From UHGV virus genome UHGV-0392688: 12,430 nt of DNA. One strand, written 5' to 3'. Each line of letters opens with the position of its first letter. Positions within the stretch are counted from its first letter, which is position 1. The position numbers and the translations under genes were made by a program. Positions 3,636 through 12,430 of the stretch are shown one piece after another. The DNA comes from a virus. The notes beneath the pieces are model-generated. The model worked only from the letters and a program-made list of their open reading frames with translations. It ran no database searches and was not told the origin of the DNA.

Positions 3636-4680
3636 ATTTCAGCGCCCGACGCTGGCAGAAAATATCAGTATGCTCCGTAACGATTTATTCGCCAGGCTGG
3701 ACGTCAGCGACACGCTCCGGCGCATGGATGAAGACGTGCGGGCAAAGGTGTATGCGGCGGCGCTGCATACGGTTTACGGTTACATCGATTATCTGGCAAT
3801 GAACATGCTGCCTGATCTGTGCGATGAGTCCTGGCTGGCGCGACATGCTGCGATGAAACGGTGTCCGCGCAAGGGGGCCACGGCTGCCAGCGGGTATATG
3901 CGCTGGGAAGGTGTCAGCGATGGCCTGAAGGTGACCGCCGGGAGTGTTATTCAGCGCGATGACCTGGTTCAGTACACGGCAACTGCCGATGCAATCAGCA
4001 CTGGTGGTGTCCTGCGTGTGCCGATCACTTGCTCAACTACAGGCGCGGTCGGTAACGCTGACGACGGTACGGCATTAATCCTGGTCACGCCGGTGAATGG
4101 TCTGCCGTCTTCCGGTGTGGCTGACACCCTGACAGGCGGATTTGATACTGAAGAGCTGGAAACGTGGCGCGCCCGCGTCATTGAGCGGTATTACTGGACG
4201 CCTCAGGGCGGGGCTGACGGGGACTATGTCGTCTGGGCTAAAGAAGTGCCCGGCATTACCCGCGCATGGACATACCGACACTGGATGGGAACGGGGACTG
4301 TCGGTGTGATGATTGCCAGCAGTGACCTGATTAATCCCATTCCGGAAGAGTCAACGGAAACGGCGGCAAGACAACATATCGAGCCACTGGCCCCGGTGGC
4401 AGGCTCTGATTTGTATGTATTCAGGCCGGTGGCGCATAAAGTGGATTTTCATATCCGCGTGACGCCGGACACACCGGAAATACGGGCTGCCATCACCGCC
4501 GAGTTGCGTTCGTTCCTGCTGCGTGATGGTTATCCGCAGGGAGAACTGAAGGTGTCACGTATCAGTGAAGCGATTTCCGGTGCGAACGGGGAATACAGCC
4601 ATCAGTTGCTTGCCCCGGCGGACAATATCTCCATTGCAAAAAATGAGCTGGCGGTTCTGGGGACGATTTCATGGACGTGA
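3622..4680 (+). CDS. Baseplate J-like protein (Mu gp47-like)
   Basis: 352-aa ORF of the size and position of baseplate J family proteins; overlaps the upstream gene by 14 nt. Confidence 0.6.
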
Positions 4681-5255
4681 CAAACGATGATTATATCCGT
4701 CTGTTGTCGGCACTGTTGCCGCCCGGTCCGGCGTGGTCAGTCAGCGATCCGGCGATTGCCGGTGCGGCACCGTCATTAACCCGCGTTCATCAGCGTGCGG
4801 ATGCCCTGATGCGGGAGCTGGATCCGCGCACCACCACTGAACTGATAAACCGCTGGGAGCGTCTGTGCGGTCTGCCGGATGAATGTATTCCCGCAGGGAC
4901 ACAGACCCTTCGCCAGCGTCAGCAACGGCTGGATGCGAAGGTTAATCTGGCGGGCGGCATCAATGAGGATTTTTATCTTGCACAGCTTGCTGCCCTGGGC
5001 AGACCAGACGCCACTATCACGCGATACGATAAAAGCACGTTCACCTGCTCATCGGCCTGTACTGACGCAGTGAATGCGCCGGAATGGCGGTATTACTGGC
5101 AGGTCAACATGCCAGCCGCCACCAACACCACCTGGATGACATGTGGCGATCCCTGTGATTCCGCACTGCGTATCTGGGGCGACACCGTTGTCGAGTGCGT
5201 GCTTAACAAACTCTGCCCTTCGCATACCTACGTAATTTTTAAATATCCGGAGTAA
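4671..5255 (+). CDS. Tail protein, DUF2313 family (Mu gp48-like / YmfQ-like)
   Basis: 194-aa ORF directly after the baseplate J-like gene and before the tail fibre; size and context match the Mu gp48 / e14 YmfQ family. Confidence 0.55.
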
Positions 5256-5258
5256 TCC

Positions 5259-5906
5259 ATGCATCGTATAGACACGAAAACCGCGCAGAAGGATAAGTTC
5301 GGCGCGGGTAAGAACGGTTTTACCCGTGGTAACCCCCAGACCGGCACACCTGCCACCGATCTGGATGATGACTACTTTGACATGTTGCAGGAGGAGCTTT
5401 GCAGCGTTGTGGAGGCATCCGGTGCCAGCCTGGAGAAGGGGCGGCACGACCAGCTGCTTACCGCGCTTCGTGCGCTGCTGTTAAGCCGCAAGAATCCGTT
5501 TGGTGATATCAAATCGGATGGCACGGTGAAAACGGCTCTCGAAAACCTTGGTTTAGGAGAAGCGGCGAAAAGGGATGTGGGCACAGGAGATAATCAGATA
5601 CCGGATATGGGAGCATTCGCTTCTGGTTCGGGATGGTTCAGGCTACCAGGTGGATATATTGTTCAGTTTGGCACTTTTGCAGGAAACACGACCCGCTTTA
5701 TCAGTGGACACTTCCCTATACCATTCCCTAATCAGCCGATGGTTTCAGTCAGTGTTATGTCTGATGCCGTTCAGTCAGACCCGTCGAATCCTGCCCCGCA
5801 GGTTTTGTCTGTAAATTTTGAACATATCAGTAATTCAGCGTGGCGTGTGGCAACCAGTGATATCTCACAGCAATACAGATTCAGTTATATTTCGATAGGA
5901 CGGTAG
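5259..5906 (+). CDS. Short tail-fibre protein: constant N-terminal part (about residues 1-97) fused to a variable C-terminal part encoded inside the invertible segment
   Basis: 215-aa ORF. A 26-bp Hin/Gin-type crossover site lies inside the coding sequence at 5536-5561 (codons for ...ENLGLGE...). It is followed by a tail-fibre assembly gene. Resembles short e14-type tail fibres by eye. Confidence 0.6.
5536..5561. repeat. Left inversion crossover site (hix/gix/pix-like, 26 bp)
   Basis: CTCTCGAAAACC TT GGTTTAGGAGAA: two 12-bp half-sites around a 2-bp core, matching the AAAACC-NN-GGTTT pattern of Hin-family sites. The inner half-site is an 11/12 inverted repeat of the inner half-site at 7364-7375. 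Confidence 0.65.
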
Positions 5907-5908
5907 AA

Positions 5909-6349
5909 ATGCAGAAATATATTTTCAGTGCCGATAAAAATGCGTTTTTCCCTGTGGAGCTTAAAATCGCTTATCAGGAATCCGGCGAATGGCCCGGTGA
6001 TGGAATCGAAATTGACGACACTGTTGCCGCCGAATTTATGAAGGAAGCACCAGAAGGAAAATACAGAGGTGTCATCGACGGAATGCCTGCATGGATTGAT
6101 ATTCCACCGCCAACTCATGAGGAACAAATTGCCGCAGCCGAACTGGAAAAGCAGCAATTGATTAATCAGGTCAACGAATACATAAACAGTAAGCAATGGC
6201 CTGGTAAAGCGGCGATTGGTCGCCTGAAAGGTGAGGAACTGGCGCAATATAATTTGTGGCTGGATTATCTGGACGCACTGGAACTGGTCGATACTTCTGG
6301 TGCGCCAGATATTGAATGGCCTACGCCTCCGGCAGTTCAGGCCAGATGA
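5909..6349 (+). CDS. Tail fibre assembly protein (Tfa/U-like), partner of the currently expressed fibre variant
   Basis: 146-aa ORF directly after the fibre gene. Its C-terminal motif (TSGAPDIEWPTPP) is echoed in the convergent gene's C-terminus (TSTAPDVIWPELP), as expected for paralogous assembly proteins. Confidence 0.6.
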   Translation: MQKYIFSADKNAFFPVELKIAYQESGEWPGDGIEIDDTVAAEFMKEAPEGKYRGVIDGMPAWIDIPPPTHEEQIAAAELEKQQLINQVNEYINSKQWPGKAAIGRLKGEELAQYNLWLDYLDALELVDTSGAPDIEWPTPPAVQAR

Positions 6350-6923
6350 CATCCGGCGCGGTGCTGGTATCTGTTGCCGCCACCGCGTCAATGTAATCCA
6401 GCACAGCGTTAAGCCGGGTTGTTTCTGCCTGCGTCAGCTTCCGCCCGGCCCGTAATTTCAGCTGAATCAGACTGATGGAAGCCATTGCAGCATCAATCAG
6501 CGACTGGCGCTTTGCTTCTGCCGCTTCTACTGCGGCACTATGTTGTGCCTCGGTATCCGTCACCCATTTCTCACCATCCCATTTATCATATGGCGTTAAC
6601 GGGGCGATAGTGGTTGTATTTTCAGGGTAATCACCCGGAGCTGTGATTTCTTTCGATTCTCCTGTTTCGGTGCTATAGATGATTTCACCGCGATGGTCTG
6701 GCACATATTCCCATGAGTTAAAATCTGCAGAACGGCAGATTGCATAACCAGCTTTATGTGTAACTGGTGCATCTAAACAAGAACATGCCGGTATACCGAC
6801 GCCAACCGCAAGATATTCAGTTGATGTGGAAATATATTCCCGCGTTTCACCATCATAATTATAAATGGTAATGTCTCCCGCTTTTATGGCAATGAGTTCG
6901 TTATTTAATACGGCTTTATTCAT
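6321..6923 (-). CDS. Tail fibre assembly protein (Tfa/U'-like), alternative orientation
   Basis: 200-aa ORF on the minus strand inside the invertible segment. It follows the alternative fibre C-terminal segment with a 1-nt stop/start overlap at 6923, and its 3' end overlaps the + strand assembly gene (6321-6349). Confidence 0.6.
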   Translation of the reverse strand: MNKAVLNNELIAIKAGDITIYNYDGETREYISTSTEYLAVGVGIPACSCLDAPVTHKAGYAICRSADFNSWEYVPDHRGEIIYSTETGESKEITAPGDYPENTTTIAPLTPYDKWDGEKWVTDTEAQHSAAVEAAEAKRQSLIDAAMASISLIQLKLRAGRKLTQAETTRLNAVLDYIDAVAATDTSTAPDVIWPELPEA

Positions 6924-7377
6924 CAGGCTGCCCTCACGATATAGTTAAATGCGACGTTGCGCGGCCGTGTCTCTGCACCAACGCGAGGCTGACCGCCTGC
7001 AAAATTGGTTGATGATACAGGACCAACCAAATCACCATCGCCAGTTCGTGTGTTCCCGCCATCGGGTAGCGCGCCGGAGCCACCGAATGCACCAATGTAC
7101 GATATGCGGATGTTACTGTGCCCGTGGTTTTGCAGCTGGTCTGTCTGTGATGAACCAAGATTTCTTGACGGGTCTACCCCGCGCCCATCATCCCATCCAC
7201 GAATAAATTCACCGCGTAAATCAGGCAATTTATTTGTCGGGTAAGCCTTTGCCAGTTCCGGGTATTCTTCAGCAGAAAAAGCCGCACCATTGCATTTCAA
7301 CCAGCCTGTTGGCGGAGTGGCTGAAGGCCACGGAACAGGCACCCCAACAGGTAATGCTGAGCCTTCTCCCAAACCAA
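6923..7377 (-). CDS. Promoterless alternative tail-fibre C-terminal segment (tail-collar-like), expressed only after inversion fuses it to the constant N-terminus
   Basis: The minus-strand frame is open from the crossover site (...KVGLGEGSALPVG...) with no ATG; the ORF track's start at 7372 is a TTG. It encodes the same LGLGE junction peptide as the left site. The region ...AAFSAEEYPELAKAYPTNKLPDLRGEFIRGWDDGRG... resembles phage tail-collar/fibre C-terminal domains. Confidence 0.55.
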
Positions 7378-7389
7378 CCTTTCAAATAT
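7364..7389. repeat. Right inversion crossover site (inverted copy)
   Basis: TTCTCCCAAACC AA CCTTTCAAATAT; its reverse complement ...TT GGTTTGGGAGAA matches the left site's core and inner half-site at 11/12 positions. Confidence 0.6.
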
Positions 7390-7416
7390 TTTTCTGAATC
7401 AGGTGATATTTCGCCT

Positions 7417-7443
7417 CTTCTCCTGTTTTTACAACAGGAGAAG
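7417..7443 (+). promoter_or_regulatory. Perfect 11-bp stem hairpin enclosing the invertase Shine-Dalgarno
   Basis: CTTCTCCTGTT (7417-7427), loop TTTAC, AACAGGAGAAG (7433-7443). The AGGAG at 7436-7440 is the only plausible RBS for the ATG at 7449. Confidence 0.45.
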
Positions 7444-7448
7444 CACTC

Positions 7449-8012
7449 ATGATTTACGGGTATGTTCGTGTATCAACAAATCATCAGGATACAGAGTTGC
7501 AACGTCTTGCACTTGAGTCAGCTGGCTGTGAGCGAATTTATGAAGAATATGCCAGTGGCAGAACAGCTAATCGCCCTGTGTTAAAGGAATTAATTACGGT
7601 GATGAAAAGTGGAGATGAGTTGATTGTCTGGAAGTTAGATCGGATAGGGAGAAATGTGCTGCATGCGCTATTGATGTTTCAAAATCTGCACGAAAAAGGT
7701 GTTAATTTTCGGAGTATTACAGATGGCGTAGACCTGAAAACAGCAAGTGGTCGCTATAATTTCCGTAATATTCTTTCTGCTGCGCAGTATGAATCTGATT
7801 TGAATAGCGAGCGAACTTTAGCTGGTTTGGCTATTGCCAGATCCAAAGGCCGGATTGGTGGGCGTAGACCGAAGTTTAGCGACGAGCAGTGGCAACAGAT
7901 GGGAGCGCTCATAGCGGCAGGGAAATCACGGCGTTATGTTGCACGTATCTATAACGTTGGGCTATCAACCCTATATAAACGATTTCCTGTTACTGGCATT
8001 CAAACGAAATAA
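7449..8012 (+). CDS. pin: Serine recombinase, DNA invertase (Hin/Gin/Pin family)
   Basis: 187 aa. N-terminal YVRVSTNHQ carries the catalytic serine; GRIGGRRPK and a C-terminal helix-turn-helix (LSTLYKRF) are typical of the family. Sits directly next to the invertible segment. Confidence 0.8.
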   Translation: MIYGYVRVSTNHQDTELQRLALESAGCERIYEEYASGRTANRPVLKELITVMKSGDELIVWKLDRIGRNVLHALLMFQNLHEKGVNFRSITDGVDLKTASGRYNFRNILSAAQYESDLNSERTLAGLAIARSKGRIGGRRPKFSDEQWQQMGALIAAGKSRRYVARIYNVGLSTLYKRFPVTGIQTK

Positions 8013-8155: not shown

Positions 8156-8404
8156 TTAGTGAACAAACCACTCGTCAGCAGATTCCCAGGTATCTTTCAG
8201 AGTCTCCTGAACAAAAGTTTTTGCAGAATCCTTATCTGCGGTGCGTGTAACAGAAAGGCCATCGTTGCTGGTGGCTTTTACGATCACCTCTACATCGTCA
8301 TAACGTTTACTGATGCGTCGGGTTAATTCTTCCTTTAACGCATCCACAGCACCGGTTGGCATTTTAGTCATTTTTTCTTTGGCTATGCAGATTTCAATAC
8401 GCAT
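8156..8404 (-). CDS. dinI: DinI-family protein (SOS-inducible RecA modulator-like)
   Basis: 82 aa, [11 protein letters not shown]...[11 protein letters not shown], matching the DinI family pattern (MRIE...ETWESAD.WFV). GAGGG RBS 6 nt upstream. Two LexA boxes lie directly upstream. Confidence 0.75.
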
Positions 8405-8465: not shown

Positions 8466-9563
8466 TCAAGAGGCCTTATTTCTGCTCCTTTGGAGCTCTT
8501 CAAAACGATTATGTAAAGATTTCGGATACAGTTCGGTATATACCTGCCATAGCACGTTTAATGAACGATGCCCTGTAACCTGGGCGACTTCCTCAATACT
8601 AAAACCAGCCTCAAATAAGCGACTTGCCCCTTCTCTACGCAAATCATGGTATCGCAGATCTTTAATACCTAATTTGCTTCTTACCCTCTGGAATCCCGCA
8701 GTAACAGAAGTGCTGTTATATGGAAAAATGAATTCTGATTTTTTGGGTTGTCGTTGGACGATATCCCAGGCTTCCCCAAGCAAGGCTACTTTCATATGGT
8801 TGCCTTCCTTTTTACGTGGATCTTTCCTGTCTCTTACGAGTATGGATTTTTGTTCCTGATCGAGATCCTCCCATCGTAATCGGCATACTTCACCGATTCG
8901 CATACATGACCACACAGAAAATTTGAGGATATCAACGAACGGAATTTTTGAGCATTTATGTGTAGATCGTTGTTGAAGACCTTCAATGAGCATGTCCAGT
9001 TCATCAGATGCCGGTCTACGATTACGACGATTTGATTTACCAATTAAACCAAGTTTAAGTAGATATGGACGAGCGGCTTTTGCTGGGTTTGATGTGTAAT
9101 TAATTCCATATACAGGTTTGGCAGCATCCAGAACACTGCCAAGATAACTAACATCGTGGCTAACTGTAGCTGGACCTGCACCAGCGTTGTTTCTTAGCCT
9201 GCAATGTTCAATTACGTCATTTTCTGTCAGTTCAGATAGTTTGAGCGCGGAGACGTCACTATCCATAAGCAGTTCCAGCACATATCTTTTAGTACGGCCT
9301 GCTTTACCTCCGGCATTTGGGTCATTTAAATATTTGTGTAGTAAGTCACGGACTGTAAGTCCGTCAACTGCATTTGATGATGGAATGCCATATAGATCTA
9401 ATTCCATCACTTTCTGTGTGCCCCATGTTTTGGCATGAGCATGTTTAGGGAATGTTTTACTTTCCCTGTAAGTGATAACACCTTTTTCTTTGATAATCAC
9501 ATTACAGCGATAGCGTGGTGTGCCATCGGATTTTAGTCGTTTCTCTATGTTATAGTATGCCAT
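8466..9563 (-). CDS. int: Tyrosine site-specific recombinase (phage integrase)
   Basis: 365 aa. The C-terminal catalytic region has the R...HxxR...H...Y pattern (CMRIGEV..., RYHDLRREG, VTGHRSLNVLWQVYTEL). GAGG RBS 8 nt upstream of the ATG. Confidence 0.8.
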   Translation of the reverse strand: MAYYNIEKRLKSDGTPRYRCNVIIKEKGVITYRESKTFPKHAHAKTWGTQKVMELDLYGIPSSNAVDGLTVRDLLHKYLNDPNAGGKAGRTKRYVLELLMDSDVSALKLSELTENDVIEHCRLRNNAGAGPATVSHDVSYLGSVLDAAKPVYGINYTSNPAKAARPYLLKLGLIGKSNRRNRRPASDELDMLIEGLQQRSTHKCSKIPFVDILKFSVWSCMRIGEVCRLRWEDLDQEQKSILVRDRKDPRKKEGNHMKVALLGEAWDIVQRQPKKSEFIFPYNSTSVTAGFQRVRSKLGIKDLRYHDLRREGASRLFEAGFSIEEVAQVTGHRSLNVLWQVYTELYPKSLHNRFEELQRSRNKAS

Positions 9564-9583
9564 TACACGACCTCGTTATTTCG

Positions 9584-9606
9584 GGTTCCCATAAAACGTG
9601 GGAACC
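9584..9606. promoter_or_regulatory. Perfect palindrome GGTTCCCA-N7-TGGGAACC just upstream of the integrase start (operator or protein-binding site candidate)
   Basis: 8-bp arms with a 7-bp spacer, 21-43 bp upstream of the int ATG. Further GGGAACC copies at 9612-9618 and 9810-9816, with TGGGAACCTGT repeated at 9599-9609 and 9809-9819. Confidence 0.4.
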
Positions 9607-10009
9607 TGTGCGGGAACCTAACGCGAGAAAAATAGCCTGAAATGTTCAAAAATGCACGATAATCATGAAACACAAAAAATTAATCAAACCAGCGTGATGC
9701 CTGAAAAAACTGGTGTTTACTGGAATTCTCGGTTTAGCATTGCTCCTATGCTCGATAGGATGTACCGTTGTTGAAAAACAACTAGTTATACACTTTGTGG
9801 GAGCCTATTGGGAACCTGTTATTCTTAGAAAGCATCATTTGCTCATCACTTCAATTGACCATGATTAAAGCCAGCTATAAACTTGACAAACAAGGTAACT
9901 AGTTGCTTAGGCCTAAGTGGGCACACCATAAGAAGCGCATGTTGGTGATGAAGCAACCTATGAAGAATCAAGAATAATTACAAAGTTCACTATCTTTGAG
10001 GTTTCTTAT

Positions 10010-10582
10010 ATGTTTTGCGAAGAAAAAGTAGCTCAAATGGCTGCATACCTACTTCTTAAGCGAGGTGGGCGCATGGCATATCTGAAATTGATGAAGCTGC
10101 TCTATCTGTCTAACCGCAAGTCGATTTTGAAGCATGGCAGGATGATCGGCGAAGATAGCCTTTACTCTATGAAATTTGGTCCAGTCATGTCGAATACGCT
10201 GAACTTGATTCGTGGTAAGGCTGAAGGCATTGGTGACTACTGGTACAACTTGATAGAGACGAACGGGCATGATGTGTTGTTGCGTTCAGATCCGAGGGAA
10301 ATGGATGCAGACGAGGTCTTTGATGAGTTGAGCCGTGCAGATATCCGGATTTTAGATGAAATCTATTCTCTGTATGGGCATATGAACCGATTTGATCTCG
10401 CAAACATGACGCATTTAGAAAGCGTTTGTCCAGAGTGGCACAATCCTGGCAATTCTCGTAAGCCTATAGACCTGAAAGAAATGCTGATCAGTGAGGGTAA
10501 AAGCGAGGATGAGGCTAATCGTATAATTGGCAAAATGGAAGAATCTCAGAAACTTAAGGAATTTTCTTTGCAATTATCATGA
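10010..10582 (+). CDS. Panacea-domain (DUF4065, SocA/GepA-like) protein, candidate antitoxin or sensor of a two-gene module
   Basis: 190 aa. The N-terminal half (...AAYLLLKRGGRMAYLKLMKLLYLSNRKS...MKFGPV...) matches the DUF4065/Panacea pattern. GAGG RBS 9 nt upstream. Stop overlaps the next ATG (ATGA at 10579-10582). Confidence 0.6.
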   Translation: MFCEEKVAQMAAYLLLKRGGRMAYLKLMKLLYLSNRKSILKHGRMIGEDSLYSMKFGPVMSNTLNLIRGKAEGIGDYWYNLIETNGHDVLLRSDPREMDADEVFDELSRADIRILDEIYSLYGHMNRFDLANMTHLESVCPEWHNPGNSRKPIDLKEMLISEGKSEDEANRIIGKMEESQKLKEFSLQLS

Positions 10583-10995
10583 CGGATTATCAGCCATACA
10601 GGAAAGGAACTGTGCTTGCCCCAACTGGGCCATGCAATCATCTTCATGTGATTTGTAATGATCCTGTTTATTACCCCGTTAACGATTGTTATTGTGTTTT
10701 AGTTGTTAATATTTCTAGTATCAAGGATGGTGTCCCCCACGATCCGTCTTGCGTCTTGAATTCTGGTGATCATCGCTTTATCAAGCATCCAAGTTATGTT
10801 GTTTACGCTGAAGCTATAATTTGGCGAGTGGATAACATGGTTAGAAAGCAGCGATCGGGTGAGATTTCTGTTCATGATGATATGCCAGAAGCTACATTCA
10901 ATAGAATTCTGGACGGTTTTGATATATCTGATGAAGTTACGCCAAAGAACCTTAAATTTAAAAATAAATATTGCGTATCATCTATTGATGATTAG
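10579..10995 (+). CDS. Hypothetical 138-aa protein, candidate toxin/effector partner of the Panacea-domain protein
   Basis: Coupled to the upstream gene by a 4-bp ATGA overlap. AT-rich coding sequence. His/Cys-rich N-terminal half (NHLHVICND..., CYCVLVV, HDPSCVL, DHRFIKH) and acidic C-terminus. I do not recognise any family. Confidence 0.5.
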   Translation: MTDYQPYRKGTVLAPTGPCNHLHVICNDPVYYPVNDCYCVLVVNISSIKDGVPHDPSCVLNSGDHRFIKHPSYVVYAEAIIWRVDNMVRKQRSGEISVHDDMPEATFNRILDGFDISDEVTPKNLKFKNKYCVSSIDD

Positions 10996-11037
10996 TAAAC
11001 AACAGGAATTTTTTCGGTATAGCTTCTGGAGTTTTCT

Positions 11038-11211
11038 ATGGAAGATCAAAAAGCAACCAAGCCACAGGTTAAGTTCGACACAATGAAAGCATTCGCAGGT
11101 ATGGGGGCTGCTGTTGAAGTTCTGATGAAGGCTGTTCCTAATGCGTTCACTCACGCTACTGTCTCTGGTAAAGAGCAGCAGGGTAAGCTTCGTCGTCGCA
11201 AAGCAGCATGA
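11038..11211 (+). CDS. Small 57-aa protein (MEDQKATKPQVKFDTMKAFAGMGAAVEVLMKAVPNAFTHATVSGKEQQGKLRRRKAA), unknown function
   Basis: Not in the ORF track. ATG at 11038 with GGAG at 11028-11031 (6-nt spacer), TGA at 11209-11211, and a strong terminator 20 bp downstream. Same strand as the Panacea pair. Confidence 0.4.
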   Translation: MEDQKATKPQVKFDTMKAFAGMGAAVEVLMKAVPNAFTHATVSGKEQQGKLRRRKAA

Positions 11212-11230
11212 TCATAGCTGGTGCTTTTTG

Positions 11231-11260
11231 AAAACCCGCCTTCAGGCGGGTTTTTTCTTT
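11231..11260. terminator. Bidirectional rho-independent terminator
   Basis: AAAA CCCGCC TTCA GGCGGG TTTTTTCTTT: a 6-bp GC stem with A-run and T-run flanks, between the convergent small ORF (+) and PrtN-like gene (-). Confidence 0.75.
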
Positions 11261-11540
11261 AGTGATGTTCTTTGCCCTTCTGTTTGACTGTTCTGACCTG
11301 TTCCCACTCGATACGTCCTTCTTCTCGCCTTTTGTCTATGTATTCCGCAAGATCCTGAATATTGATGCAACGTTTTGCTTTTTGTGATGTGCCGATGCGA
11401 TATGTTGGAACGGGCAACTTACAAGCGTTTGCTTTTGCTTCTGCCGTGGCTGGACTCATACCAAAGTACTTTTGGCTAACTGCTGAGAGTTCAATGTTTG
11501 GGGTATTGAATTCAGCCATCAGTAAAAACAAGGTGTTCAT
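11259..11540 (-). CDS. PrtN-family small DNA-binding protein (possible excisionase-like or transcriptional activator)
   Basis: The ORF track extends to 11567, but the ATG at 11540 (MNTLFLLMAEF...) has a GGAG RBS 8 nt upstream and gives a 93-aa product. The N-terminus resembles PrtN/pyocin-activator-type proteins by eye. Lies in the leftward operon toward int. Confidence 0.45.
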   Translation of the reverse strand: MNTLFLLMAEFNTPNIELSAVSQKYFGMSPATAEAKANACKLPVPTYRIGTSQKAKRCINIQDLAEYIDKRREEGRIEWEQVRTVKQKGKEHH

Positions 11541-11576
11541 AATTTTCTCCATCAAAACCGGCTGCACCCGGGAAAA

Positions 11577-12149
11577 TCATAATTCTGTGCTGGTGGCAGG
11601 AATTAATTTCTGCCAGATAGCGGAAACATATTTTGCCTGATGACGGGCATCAGCCAGGGCGTTGTGCCGTTCGCCATCGAAAGGCATGTCCATTTTGGGG
11701 TCGAATCCGATGGAACGCCCAAGCGTAACGATCGTGCGTACATCGTGGTCATTCCAGTACGCCCACGGGCAGATTTGTCCTGCTCGCTCGTAAGCTCCAC
11801 GTAAAATTACGTTGTCGAAGGTGGCCCCGTTACCCCAGACTTTTAAATATTTTGTATTGTCTGCATGCTGATTAATGAAATGGCTCAGTTCAGAGAGTGC
11901 ATCGCTGATCGACAAAGTATCATCAATACATATTGCAGCTCGTGCTTCAGAGCTCTGTTTCAACCACCACAGGATGGTATCGCCGTCAGGTGTAGCTCCT
12001 TGCTTCATAGCACTGTCCAAGCTGACAACCGTATAGAATTCTTGTCCGATGTCTCCTGTTTCTAGGGTGAAGAACACCGCGCCAATGGAAACGATCGGCG
12101 CGTCCTTATTTTTCCCCATCGTCTCAAGGTCGATCATTAAGTTGTTCAT
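11577..12149 (-). CDS. DnaQ-like 3'-5' exonuclease (DEDDh family), prophage exonuclease
   Basis: The ATG at 12149 has an AGGAGGT RBS; the track's 12152 start is a GTG. Motifs: IDLETMG (Exo I, D-x-E), GNGATFDNVIL (Exo II) and HNALADARH (Exo III, H-x4-D). Start overlaps the upstream stop by 1 nt (TGATG). Confidence 0.65.
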   Translation of the reverse strand: MNNLMIDLETMGKNKDAPIVSIGAVFFTLETGDIGQEFYTVVSLDSAMKQGATPDGDTILWWLKQSSEARAAICIDDTLSISDALSELSHFINQHADNTKYLKVWGNGATFDNVILRGAYERAGQICPWAYWNDHDVRTIVTLGRSIGFDPKMDMPFDGERHNALADARHQAKYVSAIWQKLIPATSTEL

Positions 12150-12430
12150 CACTTCACCTCCTGCGGCGGTTCCGGTAGCGGCATCCAGTGAGTTGCTTGC
12201 TCAATACCATTACCCGGCTTAATCGTTGCATCTCCGCGCCGAAAGGTGCTTCCGGTATAGCGTGCGGAGCATATTAGCGGTTCAACCAGAGAGCTATCGA
12301 AATTCACCGAAATAAGCACGTTCTGGCCCTTTTCAGGCATTCTATCACTACAGCTTATCCAACTATCCGGAGTTACCGGAGAGTTGCCCGATAGCTGGTT
12401 CAACTTGTAAGTTTGGCTTACAGGTTCGGC
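12149..12430 (-). CDS. DUF551-domain phage protein, 5' end probably outside the window
   Basis: The minus-strand frame is open to the window edge; the track's start at 12403 is a TTG. ...WISCSDRMPEKGQNVL... and the C-terminal HWMPLPEPP match the DUF551 pattern. Confidence 0.5.
   Translation of the reverse strand, partial: AEPVSQTYKLNQLSGNSPVTPDSWISCSDRMPEKGQNVLISVNFDSSLVEPLICSARYTGSTFRRGDATIKPGNGIEQATHWMPLPEPPQEVK

What the first reader, a model, noticed from the sequence alone, without database searches (positions are those of the whole stretch)
9564..11260. Opposite-strand, AT-richer cargo island inserted between int and the early-left operon
Seen in sequence: the integrase (-) and the PrtN-like/exonuclease/DUF551 genes (-) form a leftward unit, but about 1.7 kb between them holds three + strand genes with their own leader and a strong bidirectional terminator (11231-11260). 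By eye this stretch is distinctly more AT-rich than the baseplate genes; I did not compute GC content. Inference: this is a moron-type accessory insertion, the position where temperate phages commonly carry defence or lysogenic-conversion cargo.
Basis: partly seen in the sequence, partly recalled or inferred. Interest (0 to 1): 0.6.

Follow-up and report, generated by a model that had tools for sequence, protein, structure and literature searches.

The report
Toxin-antitoxin cargo beside phage attachment site
The stretch is the attachment site of a dusA-integrating E. coli temperate phage followed by a swappable cargo slot that here holds a PanA-PanT toxin-antitoxin pair; it is a real accessory cassette of an already described kind.

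Summary
9564-11260 holds + strand ORFs ending in a strong terminator, and it is AT-rich (GC 0.41 against 0.57 for the baseplate genes).

The "leader" (9564-9818) is the phage attachment site attP. It carries a surrogate 5' end of host dusA and an 8-bp crossover core (9748-9755). In lysogens the integrase and the cargo therefore lie at opposite prophage ends.

The low GC and the codon usage are shared with int, dinI and the invertase, so composition does not delimit an island.

The swappable cassette is 9819-11024. It encodes a Panacea-domain antitoxin (PanA, 10010-10582) and an overlapping 138-aa toxin (10579-10995). The toxin has a MazF/Kid-like predicted fold and appears to belong to cluster T6 of Kurata et al. 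2022, which has an experimentally validated member. A 57-aa ORF and the terminator (11025-11258) form a separate conserved module.

Among 5426 complete E. coli genomes, five alternative cassettes fill this slot:
- this one, in 205 genomes;
- two other PanA pairs, one of them experimentally validated;
- a YafO toxin pair;
- a 177-aa unknown protein.

The moron reading is supported, but the kind is known. A defence role is inferred, not shown.

The parts
8466..9563 (-). Tyrosine integrase of a dusA-integrating prophage
   Evidence: Pfam Phage_integrase 1.1e-20. In 728 of 5426 E. coli genomes int plus the P arm abuts dusA, and the match ends at window 9755.
9564..9818 (.). attP: P arm 9564-9747, core 9748-9755, P' arm 9756-9818. 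GGGAACCT-type repeats lie on both arms (9584-9591 inverted, 9600-9607, 9612-9619, 9799-9806 degenerate, 9810-9817); these are putative arm-type integrase sites.
   Evidence: The attP/attL/attR alignment and the attL alignment show host sequence replacing phage sequence on either side of the core. Their binding function is inferred.
9652..9774 (+). Surrogate 5' end of dusA. After integration it replaces the host gene's 5' end; in the phage form it is a 40-codon decoy ORF.
   Evidence: About 85% identical to the host dusA 5' end up to the core. In lysogen C311 the full-length annotated dusA starts in phage-derived sequence. The displaced host 5' fragment is annotated as a dusA pseudogene at attL. 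This matches the behaviour described for dusA-associated integrases (PMC4482086).
9748..9755 (.). Crossover core ATGCTCGA, shared by attP, attL and attR
   Evidence: this is the only block bounded by phage/host mismatches on both sides. attR-type matches end at 9755.
9819..10009 (+). Cassette leader with one promoter-like site (TTGACC-17-TAAACT, 9855-9883) and an SD GAGG at 9997-10000
   Evidence: Promoter scan: 9/12 match, and the number of such sites in the region is not above chance. The left homology breakpoint with other cassettes is at 9816-9818, or 9860 for one variant. GC 0.361.
10010..10582 (+). panA: Panacea (DUF4065/SocA-like) domain antitoxin, 190 aa
   Evidence: Pfam SocA_Panacea 1.8e-18, 67.9 bits against a cutoff of 25.7. 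RefSeq names it 'Panacea domain-containing protein'. A homolog lies directly upstream of the toxin homolog in 27 of 30 loci from other genera.
10579..10995 (+). panT: 138-aa toxin candidate with a MazF/Kid/CcdB-like predicted fold. Its start overlaps the panA stop (ATGA).
11038..11211 (+). orf57: conserved 57-aa ORF of unknown function, in a separate mini-module with the terminator (11025-11258)
   Evidence: phrog_2741 5.8e-35. Retained next to a different cassette in mEp460 and O157:H7, where homology resumes at 11025. Absent in Kosakonia/Pluralibacter and in the two cassette types fetched whose homology resumes only at 11289-11290. SD GGAG 6 nt upstream (read from sequence).
11230..11255 (+). 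Intrinsic terminator closing the + strand unit; a weaker hairpin for the convergent prtN
   Evidence: In some E. coli a CoiA-like gene is inserted at 11238-11247, inside this hairpin.
11259..11567 (-). PrtN-family small DNA-binding protein that forms the right border of the slot; annotated as excisionase in mEp460
   Evidence: Pfam PyocinActivator 4.2e-23. mEp460 RefSeq annotation 'excisionase'. The excisionase role was not tested here.

Best explanation
The stretch has three parts.

1. 9564-9818 is attP of a lambdoid, Mu-tailed (SKA5/SfIV-like) E. coli phage that integrates into the 5' end of dusA. It carries a replacement dusA 5' end and an 8-bp core at 9748-9755.

2. 9819-11024 is an exchangeable cassette encoding a type II PanA-PanT toxin-antitoxin pair. 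PanA is a Panacea-domain antitoxin that presumably binds and neutralises the toxin. PanT is a MazF-fold protein of Kurata's T6 cluster. By analogy with the validated Pseudomonas moraviensis member, it probably inhibits translation as an RNase.

3. 11025-11258 is a small conserved ORF plus an intrinsic terminator.

After integration the cassette sits at the extreme prophage end. It lies directly downstream of, and in the same orientation as, the truncated host dusA 5' fragment, and it is convergent with the prophage early-left genes. It can therefore be expressed in the lysogen independently of the lytic programme, from its own weak promoter-like site or by read-through from the host dusA promoter.

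Most likely role: a lysogen-expressed toxin-antitoxin module that gives abortive-infection-type protection against other phages, stabilises the prophage, or both.

Shown here: the attP anatomy, the domain and fold assignments, the conserved gene pairing and the slot polymorphism.

Inferred: toxicity, neutralisation, RNase activity, expression in the lysogen and the defence role.
For: attP and dusA:
- Lysogen attL has host dusA 5' sequence up to ATGCTCGA and is identical to the window after it.
- attR has int, the phage P arm and then full-length dusA.
- This matches the described dusA-associated integrase behaviour (PMC4482086).

PanA:
- Pfam SocA_Panacea 1.8e-18.

Pairing:
- The two genes overlap by 4 nt.
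- A PanA homolog lies immediately upstream of the toxin homolog in 27 of 30 loci across Gamma-, Alpha- and Betaproteobacteria.

Toxin fold:
- AF2 mean pLDDT 90.2.

Link to T6:
- Kurata Dataset S1 lists Pantoea septica LMG 5345 (gap -4) and Yersiniaceae 2016Iso4 (gap -1) as T6 PanAT pairs.
- The same strains were recovered as homolog loci with the same gaps.
- The T6 member from P. moraviensis was shown to be toxic, neutralised by PanA, complex-forming and translation-inhibiting (PMC8832971).

Slot variability, out of 5426 complete E. coli genomes:
- this cassette, 205;
- 177-aa gp23 type, 357;
- a second PanA pair, 46;
- 179-aa protein plus YafO toxin, 48;
- the validated E. coli STEC O31-type PanA (WP_000287252.1) with a toxin variant (WP_000019186.1), 79.
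Breakpoints lie at 9816-9818 or 9860, and at 11025 or 11289.

No + strand terminator was predicted between the host dusA fragment and panA in the lysogen.
Against: - No experiment on this pair exists, and none can be run here.
- The toxin has no sequence-level match to PemK/MazF Pfam models or to any PDB chain. The known MazF catalytic residues were not identified in it.
- The T6 assignment is indirect: it rests on strain names and intergenic distances, not on an alignment with the P. moraviensis protein.
- PADLOC has no model hit for any protein of this or the sister cassettes, so a defence role is not supported by a database.
- The promoter-like site is a 9/12 match in a region with no excess of such matches.
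- Composition does not set the cassette apart from int/dinI.
- In Kosakonia and Pluralibacter the cassette looks long-resident, which fits 'stable module of this prophage lineage' as well as 'mobile cargo'.
Confidence: 0.8

Rival explanations
1. One reading: a compositionally foreign, recently acquired island inserted into a contiguous leftward int/early-left transcription unit, with its own leader.
For: The genes are on the opposite strand, there is a strong terminator, and GC is lower than in the structural genes. Related phages carry different cargo.
Against: 9564-9818 is attP, so int and the early-left genes are separated by the recombination site, not by an insertion. GC and codon usage match int/dinI/invertase. 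The same cassette is collinear with attP and PrtN at about 72-78% identity in other genera, so it is not recent.
Confidence: 0.1
2. The PanAT pair acts mainly as an addiction or stabilisation module for the prophage, or is purely selfish, rather than as an anti-phage defence. Loss of the element would free the stable toxin and kill or arrest the segregant.
For: The pair has classical type II toxin-antitoxin architecture. It sits at the very end of the prophage next to the att site. No defence-database hit was found. In OHT76-1 the integrase query matched only the attL dusA fragment (11% of the query), which suggests a remnant that has lost int yet keeps the cassette.
Against: The slot is filled by alternative toxin-antitoxin or unknown cassettes in related prophages. 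That pattern is typical of diversifying defence hot spots. Many toxin-antitoxin pairs, including relatives in the NetFlax network, are linked to phage defence (PMC10440598). The two roles are not mutually exclusive.
Confidence: 0.3
3. The two ORFs are not a toxin-antitoxin pair. They are phage regulatory or replication-related proteins that happen to contain a Panacea-like domain and an SH3-like barrel.
Against: The Panacea domain scores well above Pfam's cutoff. The tight two-gene linkage is conserved in unrelated genomic contexts, including Serratia, Pantoea, Brenneria and alphaproteobacteria, where only the pair is shared. The cluster it appears to belong to has a validated toxic member. 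The slot holds other bona fide toxin-antitoxin pairs, one with a YafO toxin and one a validated PanAT.
Confidence: 0.07

Closest known systems
PanA-PanT (Panacea/DUF4065) type II toxin-antitoxin systems, toxin cluster T6 (Kurata et al. 2022, PMC8832971); validated member from Pseudomonas moraviensis
   Same: Panacea-domain antitoxin encoded first and toxin second, with a 4-nt overlap. The toxin has no CDD/Pfam hit but a MazF/PemK-like fold. Two strains listed under T6 (Pantoea septica LMG 5345 and Yersiniaceae 2016Iso4) yield homologs of the window toxin with the listed gene spacing. The PanA N-terminus (MFCEEKVAQ) resembles the corrected P. moraviensis start (MIFSEQKVAQ).
   Different: This E. 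coli phage pair has not been tested. No direct alignment to the validated protein was possible here. Residues H21, H65, S72 and Y76 are invariant across the family, and their role is unknown.
E. coli STEC O31 PanAT (PanA WP_000287252.1 with a membrane-depolarising toxin, cluster T3), validated in PMC8832971
   Same: It occupies exactly the same slot, between the dusA attL and the PrtN-family gene, in related E. coli prophages (AR434 locus; 79 genomes). It also has a PanA antitoxin.
   Different: The PanA is different (157 aa) and the toxin is unrelated: 182 aa, membrane type, not MazF-fold. The cassette also replaces orf57 and the terminator.
MazF/Kid/PemK endoribonuclease toxins
dusA-associated integrase elements (Farrugia et al. 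2015, PMC4482086)
   Same: Integration into the 5' end of dusA. The element supplies a new 5' end and a remnant host 5' fragment is left at the other junction.
   Different: Here the element is an E. coli lambdoid phage with a Mu-type tail. Whether this integrase falls in the published clade was not tested.
Morons and accessory hot spots at prophage ends (for example lambda bor/lom and rexAB, the gtrABC O-antigen genes next to attP in SfII/SfIV-type phages, and P2/P4 defence hot spots); comparison from general knowledge
   Same: A separately transcribed unit with its own terminator next to the att site, with alternative cargo in relatives.
   Different: The composition is not distinct from the adjacent recombination genes. 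The cargo is dominated by PanA-type toxin-antitoxin pairs: 3 of the 5 cassette types.

Membership tests
PanAT (Panacea-domain antitoxin) type II TA | Antitoxin carries the Panacea/DUF4065 (PF13274) domain | tested here: met
   Pfam SocA_Panacea E 1.8e-18, 67.9 bits against a cutoff of 25.7, residues 27-137
PanAT (Panacea-domain antitoxin) type II TA | Conserved bicistronic arrangement, antitoxin then toxin, with a small gap or overlap | tested here: met
   4-nt overlap ATGA at 10579-10582. A PanA homolog lies directly upstream in 27 of 30 loci from other taxa.
PanAT (Panacea-domain antitoxin) type II TA | Toxin arrests growth, the antitoxin neutralises it, and the two form a complex | not testable with these tools
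   Shown only for other pairs, including a T6 member (PMC8832971)
PanT cluster T6 of Kurata et al. | Sequence homology to listed T6 toxins | tested here: inconclusive
   Homolog loci were recovered from two strains listed as T6, with matching gene spacing of -4 and -1. The accessions themselves could not be aligned.
MazF/PemK endoribonucleases | Sequence match to the PemK/MazF family model | tested here: not met
   No Pfam hit at E<=0.01. No PDB sequence hit better than E 0.3.
MazF/PemK endoribonucleases | SH3-like barrel fold of MazF/Kid/CcdB | tested here: met
MazF/PemK endoribonucleases | Sequence-specific RNA cleavage | not testable with these tools
   Inferred only. The family-invariant residues H21, H65, S72 and Y76 are candidates.
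Moron (independently transcribed accessory unit in a prophage) | Own terminator and an orientation independent of neighbouring operons | tested here: met
   Terminator at 11230-11255, -19 kcal/mol. The + strand genes are convergent with the - strand early-left genes.
Moron (independently transcribed accessory unit in a prophage) | Own promoter | tested here: inconclusive
   One 9/12 sigma-70-like site at 9855-9883. The site count is not above the shuffled expectation.
Moron (independently transcribed accessory unit in a prophage) | Composition distinct from flanking phage genes | tested here: not met
   GC is 0.413 against 0.415 for dinI-int. Codon usage is not different from int/dinI/invertase (p 0.17). 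It differs only from the baseplate genes (z 4.55).
Moron (independently transcribed accessory unit in a prophage) | Present, absent or replaced among otherwise similar phages | tested here: met
   Five alternative cassettes with sharp breakpoints
dusA-associated integrase elements | [quoted passage not shown] | tested here: met
   attL, attR and attP alignments. The annotated dusA pseudogene remnant and the full-length dusA sit at the two junctions.
dusA-associated integrase elements | Integrase belongs to the published DAI clade | not tested
   Only a generic Phage_integrase Pfam hit was obtained

The most novel reading that the evidence does not exclude
The slot between the dusA attL and the PrtN-family gene could be a dedicated, PanA-centred hot spot. 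Integration places whichever toxin-antitoxin cassette is present directly behind the displaced host dusA promoter and 5' fragment. Cargo expression would then be wired to the integrated state. The T6 toxin would use a previously undescribed His-based active site (H21/H65) on a MazF scaffold.

No indexed paper contains both 'Panacea' and 'dusA'. The published dataset flags the validated E. coli pair as 'NotPhage', although in AR434 it sits in this prophage slot.
Probability: 0.2. Interest if true: 0.45.

Novelty: new member of a known kind. Interest (0 to 1): 0.27.

Why it matters
This gives a clean, quantified example of a prophage-end hot spot in E. coli. Five alternative cassettes, four of them toxin-antitoxin pairs and three built on the promiscuous Panacea antitoxin, compete for one position next to attP.

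It places an experimentally validated E. coli PanAT pair in a defined prophage context. It also nominates an untested MazF-fold PanT that is present in 205 complete E. coli genomes.

It corrects two annotation issues. The toxin start codon is placed too late in RefSeq, and the apparent 'leader' is attP carrying a dusA surrogate.

None of this changes current concepts. Its value is as annotation and as a convenient test set for asking whether PanAT cassettes provide phage defence.

Tried and rejected
- PADLOC, NCBIfam and Pfam gave nothing for the toxin, orf57, the 177-aa gp23-type protein, the 153-aa partner or the 179-aa YafO partner. PHROGs gave only families of unknown function.
- A profile search of the toxin family against PDB sequences gave only chance-level hits, E>=0.3.
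- Rfam at a permissive threshold gave only sub-threshold terminator-like hits.
- I first suspected a zinc site (H21, H23, C26, C58) from the enterobacterial alignment. The wider alignment shows that C26, C58 and H23 are not invariant, so I dropped the idea.
- I first placed the core at about 9753-9761 from the attL alignment alone. Adding attR moved it to 9748-9755.
- I considered that the window might be an integrated prophage. The contiguous int-attP-cargo order matches phage genome records. It also matches one chromosome, GPEC1352, where the arrangement probably reflects tandem prophages. This was not resolved and does not affect the conclusions.
- The genome scan did not recover a Pseudomonas moraviensis locus, so I could not align directly to the validated T6 toxin.
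- A literature search for 'Panacea' together with 'dusA' found no paper containing both.
Full report
**Observation**

- integrase, 8466-9563 (-);
- PrtN-family protein, 11259-11567 (-);
- Rv2179c-like 3'-5' exonuclease, 11577-12152 (-);
- DUF551 protein, 12149-12403 (-);
- three + strand ORFs between them, at 10010-10582, 10579-10995 and 11038-11211.

A canonical intrinsic terminator lies at 11230-11255. It has an 11-bp stem with 6 G-C pairs followed by TTCTTT and folds at -19 kcal/mol, z -3.9. On the - strand the hairpin also forms (-16.2 kcal/mol), but only four U follow it. 'Bidirectional' is therefore only half supported.

**Composition**

The stretch has GC 0.413 against 0.569 for the baseplate genes, so the eye estimate was right. 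The low-GC tract, however, runs from about 7400 to about 11570:
- invertase, 0.436;
- dinI-int, 0.415;
- prtN, 0.434.

A permutation test on synonymous codon fractions gave these results for the cargo:
- against baseplate genes: z 4.55, p<0.001;
- against int/dinI/invertase: p 0.17;
- against the tail-fibre genes: p 0.25;
- against the early-left genes: p 0.06.

Composition therefore separates the GC-rich Mu-type tail module from everything to its right. It does not delimit an island.

**The 'leader' is attP**

A search of 5426 complete E. coli genomes found the cargo in 742 of them. In nearly all, the match starts at window 9649 and lies under an annotated dusA pseudogene fragment.

In lysogen OHT76-1 the chromosomal order is lexA, dinF, yjbJ, zur, a DUF2713 gene, a truncated dusA 5' fragment, the Panacea gene, two hypothetical genes, then prtN (-). 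The other junction, in strain C311, reads tail fibre, dinI, int (-), then full-length dusA, pspG and qorA.

Aligning attP (window), attL and attR places the exchange inside the 8-bp block ATGCTCGA at 9748-9755. This block is the only segment bounded by phage/host mismatches on both sides. To its left the phage carries a copy of the dusA start that is about 85% identical to the host's (ORF 9652-9774). This copy becomes the new 5' end of dusA after integration. This is the behaviour described for dusA-associated integrases (PMC4482086).

GGGAACCT-type repeats sit on both arms: 9584-9591 (inverted), 9600, 9612, 9799 (degenerate) and 9810. They are plausible arm-type integrase sites, but that is inferred.

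It follows that int and the early-left genes are not a unit split by an insertion. They flank attP in the circular phage form and lie at opposite ends of the prophage. After integration the cargo is the outermost block of the prophage. It sits directly behind the displaced host dusA 5' fragment, in the same orientation. No + strand terminator is predicted between that fragment and the cargo.

**The slot is variable**

Pairwise BLAST against fetched relatives gives sharp breakpoints.
- On the left, homology ends at 9816-9818, just after the last GGGAACCT repeat. In one variant it ends at 9860.
- On the right, homology resumes at 11025 (keeping orf57 and the terminator) or at 11289 (replacing them and the last codons of prtN).

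The finding therefore contains two nested modules: the cassette 9819-11024, and orf57 plus terminator at 11025-11258.

Five cassettes fill the slot. Counts are out of 5426 complete E. coli genomes.

| Cassette | Genomes |
|---|---|
| This window's PanA plus 138-aa ORF | 205 |
| 177-aa protein of unknown function (mEp460 gp23, O157:H7) | 357 |
| Different PanA (193 aa) plus 153-aa ORF | 46 |
| 179-aa ORF plus YafO-family toxin | 48 |
| PanA WP_000287252.1 plus WP_000019186.1 | 79 |

- The fifth cassette's PanA has the accession of the E. coli STEC O31 antitoxin. Kurata et al. validated that pair with a membrane-depolarising toxin, WP_000019185.1 (PMC8832971 Table 1).
- The five counts sum to 735, which is close to the 742 genomes that carry this prophage end. 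No empty slot was seen.
- Some genomes carrying the window's cassette have an extra CoiA-like nuclease gene inserted inside the terminator.

There is a counterweight. In Kosakonia and Pluralibacter the same PanAT cassette is collinear with the attP core, the terminator and prtN at a uniform 72-78% identity, and orf57 is absent. The association of this cassette with this prophage lineage is therefore old, not a recent insertion.

**What the cargo is**

ORF 10010-10582 has a Panacea (SocA-like, DUF4065) domain: E 1.8e-18, 67.9 bits against a cutoff of 25.7.

ORF 10579-10995 overlaps its stop by ATGA. It has no Pfam, NCBIfam or PADLOC family and no PDB sequence relative. It has 62 unnamed homologs, mostly in Enterobacterales. 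Their conserved N-terminus, MTxYxPYRKGT, shows that the ATG at 10579 is the true start. The RefSeq models that start 33 nt later are too short.

A scan of one genome per species recovered 32 loci. In 27 of the 30 that could be evaluated, a homolog of the window's PanA lies immediately upstream. These loci span Gamma-, Alpha- and Betaproteobacteria, and in most of them only the gene pair is shared.

Two of the loci come from Pantoea septica LMG 5345 and strain 2016-Iso4. Both strains are listed in Kurata's Dataset S1 under toxin cluster T6, with intergenic distances of -4 and -1. My ORF calls reproduce those distances.

T6 contains the Pseudomonas moraviensis PanT. That protein had no CDD hit and was predicted MazF/PemK-like by HHpred. 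It was shown to be toxic, to be neutralised by and co-purify with its PanA, and to inhibit translation.

I therefore assign the pair to PanAT with a T6-type toxin. The caveat is that I could not align it directly to the validated protein.

Across the wide family, H21, H65, S72 and Y76 are invariant. An early idea of a Cys/His zinc site did not survive that alignment.

**orf57**

This 57-aa ORF matches phrog_2741 over its full length (E 5.8e-35) and has a good SD. It travels with the terminator independently of the cassette. Its function is unknown.

**Mechanism proposed**

- Shown: the attP anatomy, the domain and fold assignments, the conserved pairing and the slot polymorphism.
- Inferred: PanA binds and neutralises a MazF-fold RNase toxin.
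- Inferred: the unit is transcribed in the lysogen, either from its weak promoter-like site (9855-9883; a 9/12 match, with site counts not above chance) or by read-through from the host dusA promoter. Transcription would stop at 11255.
- Inferred: the unit serves abortive-infection-type defence, prophage stabilisation, or both.

PADLOC gives no support for a defence role. The argument rests on the hot-spot pattern and on the general link between toxin-antitoxin systems and phage defence (PMC10440598).

**Context**

The left part of the window is a Mu-type baseplate and tail-fibre module about 97-98% identical to phage SKA5 and to the Shigella phages SfIV, SfII and SfI. The right part matches Lys8385Vzw, SKA5 and mEp460.

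**Verdict**

This is a real accessory cassette of a known kind. Its anatomy (leader, 'insertion into an operon') and its compositional argument are not.

No indexed paper contains both 'Panacea' and 'dusA', so the hot-spot description may be new in detail. Every component belongs to a described class. Interest is modest.

Noticed in passing
window 5259-8012: This looks like an invertible tail-fibre segment. It has a forward fibre C-terminus plus tfa (5259-6349), an inverted alternative tfa and fibre C-terminus (6321-7372, - strand), and a Gin/Pin-type serine invertase (7449-8012; Pfam Resolvase plus HTH_7). A 16-nt inverted repeat, 94% complementary, lies at 5555-5570 and 7409-7424 and is a candidate pair of crossover sites.
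   Followed up: partly
window 8156-8404 (-): A DinI-family gene (Pfam 1.1e-19) sits between the invertase and int. It also lies next to int in mEp460, Lys8385Vzw and the E. coli lysogens. It may be a second accessory gene on the other side of attP.
   Followed up: no
window 10579-10612; L003 4964-5350: RefSeq/PGAP models of the toxin start 33 nt downstream (128 aa). Homologs conserve the N-terminal MTxYxPYRKGT, so the start that overlaps panA by ATGA is the real one.
   Followed up: yes
L002 (phage Lys8385Vzw) about 2850-2870, equivalent to window 9748-9755: The deposited Lys8385Vzw genome has the core ATGCTCGA duplicated in tandem within attP. This could be an assembly or circularisation artefact, or a real duplication.
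   Followed up: no
L004 2812-3846 (E. coli NR3736); insertion point window 11238-11247: A 344-aa CoiA-like nuclease-domain gene (Pfam CoiA_nuc 1.5e-08) is inserted inside the cargo terminator hairpin in some genomes. It looks like a further nested cargo layer.
   Followed up: partly
L009 2404-3448 (E. coli AR434): The PanA of the experimentally validated E. coli PanAT pair (WP_000287252.1) lies in this same dusA prophage slot, next to a toxin with the adjacent accession WP_000019186.1. The published dataset flags that pair as 'NotPhage'.
   Followed up: partly
window 9776-9788 / 9896-9908 and 9889-9861 (-): Two copies of the palindrome AACTAGTT lie 117 bp apart, at 9780-9787 and 9897-9904. One is in the P' arm and one is just after the promoter-like site. 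A - strand promoter-like site (TTGTCA-17-AATCAT) points across attP towards int. It could drive int only in the circular form. This is speculative.
   Followed up: no
L008 (E. coli GPEC1352 chromosome) 3727-6472: int, an attP-like junction and the cargo are contiguous in a chromosome, and there are three matching places in the record. This probably reflects tandem dusA prophages with a hybrid junction. That neighbour has a lambda-type tail fibre rather than the window's Mu-type tail.
   Followed up: no
NZ_CP135244.1 (E. coli OHT76-1): In this strain the integrase query matched only the attL dusA fragment (11% of the query), yet the strain keeps the cargo and early genes. It looks like a prophage remnant that has lost int and retained the PanAT cassette.
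   Followed up: no
L010, L011 (Kosakonia sp. S29; Pluralibacter MAG): The same attP core, PanAT cassette, terminator and PrtN (plus the exonuclease in L011) are collinear at 72-78% identity in other genera, without orf57.
   Followed up: partly
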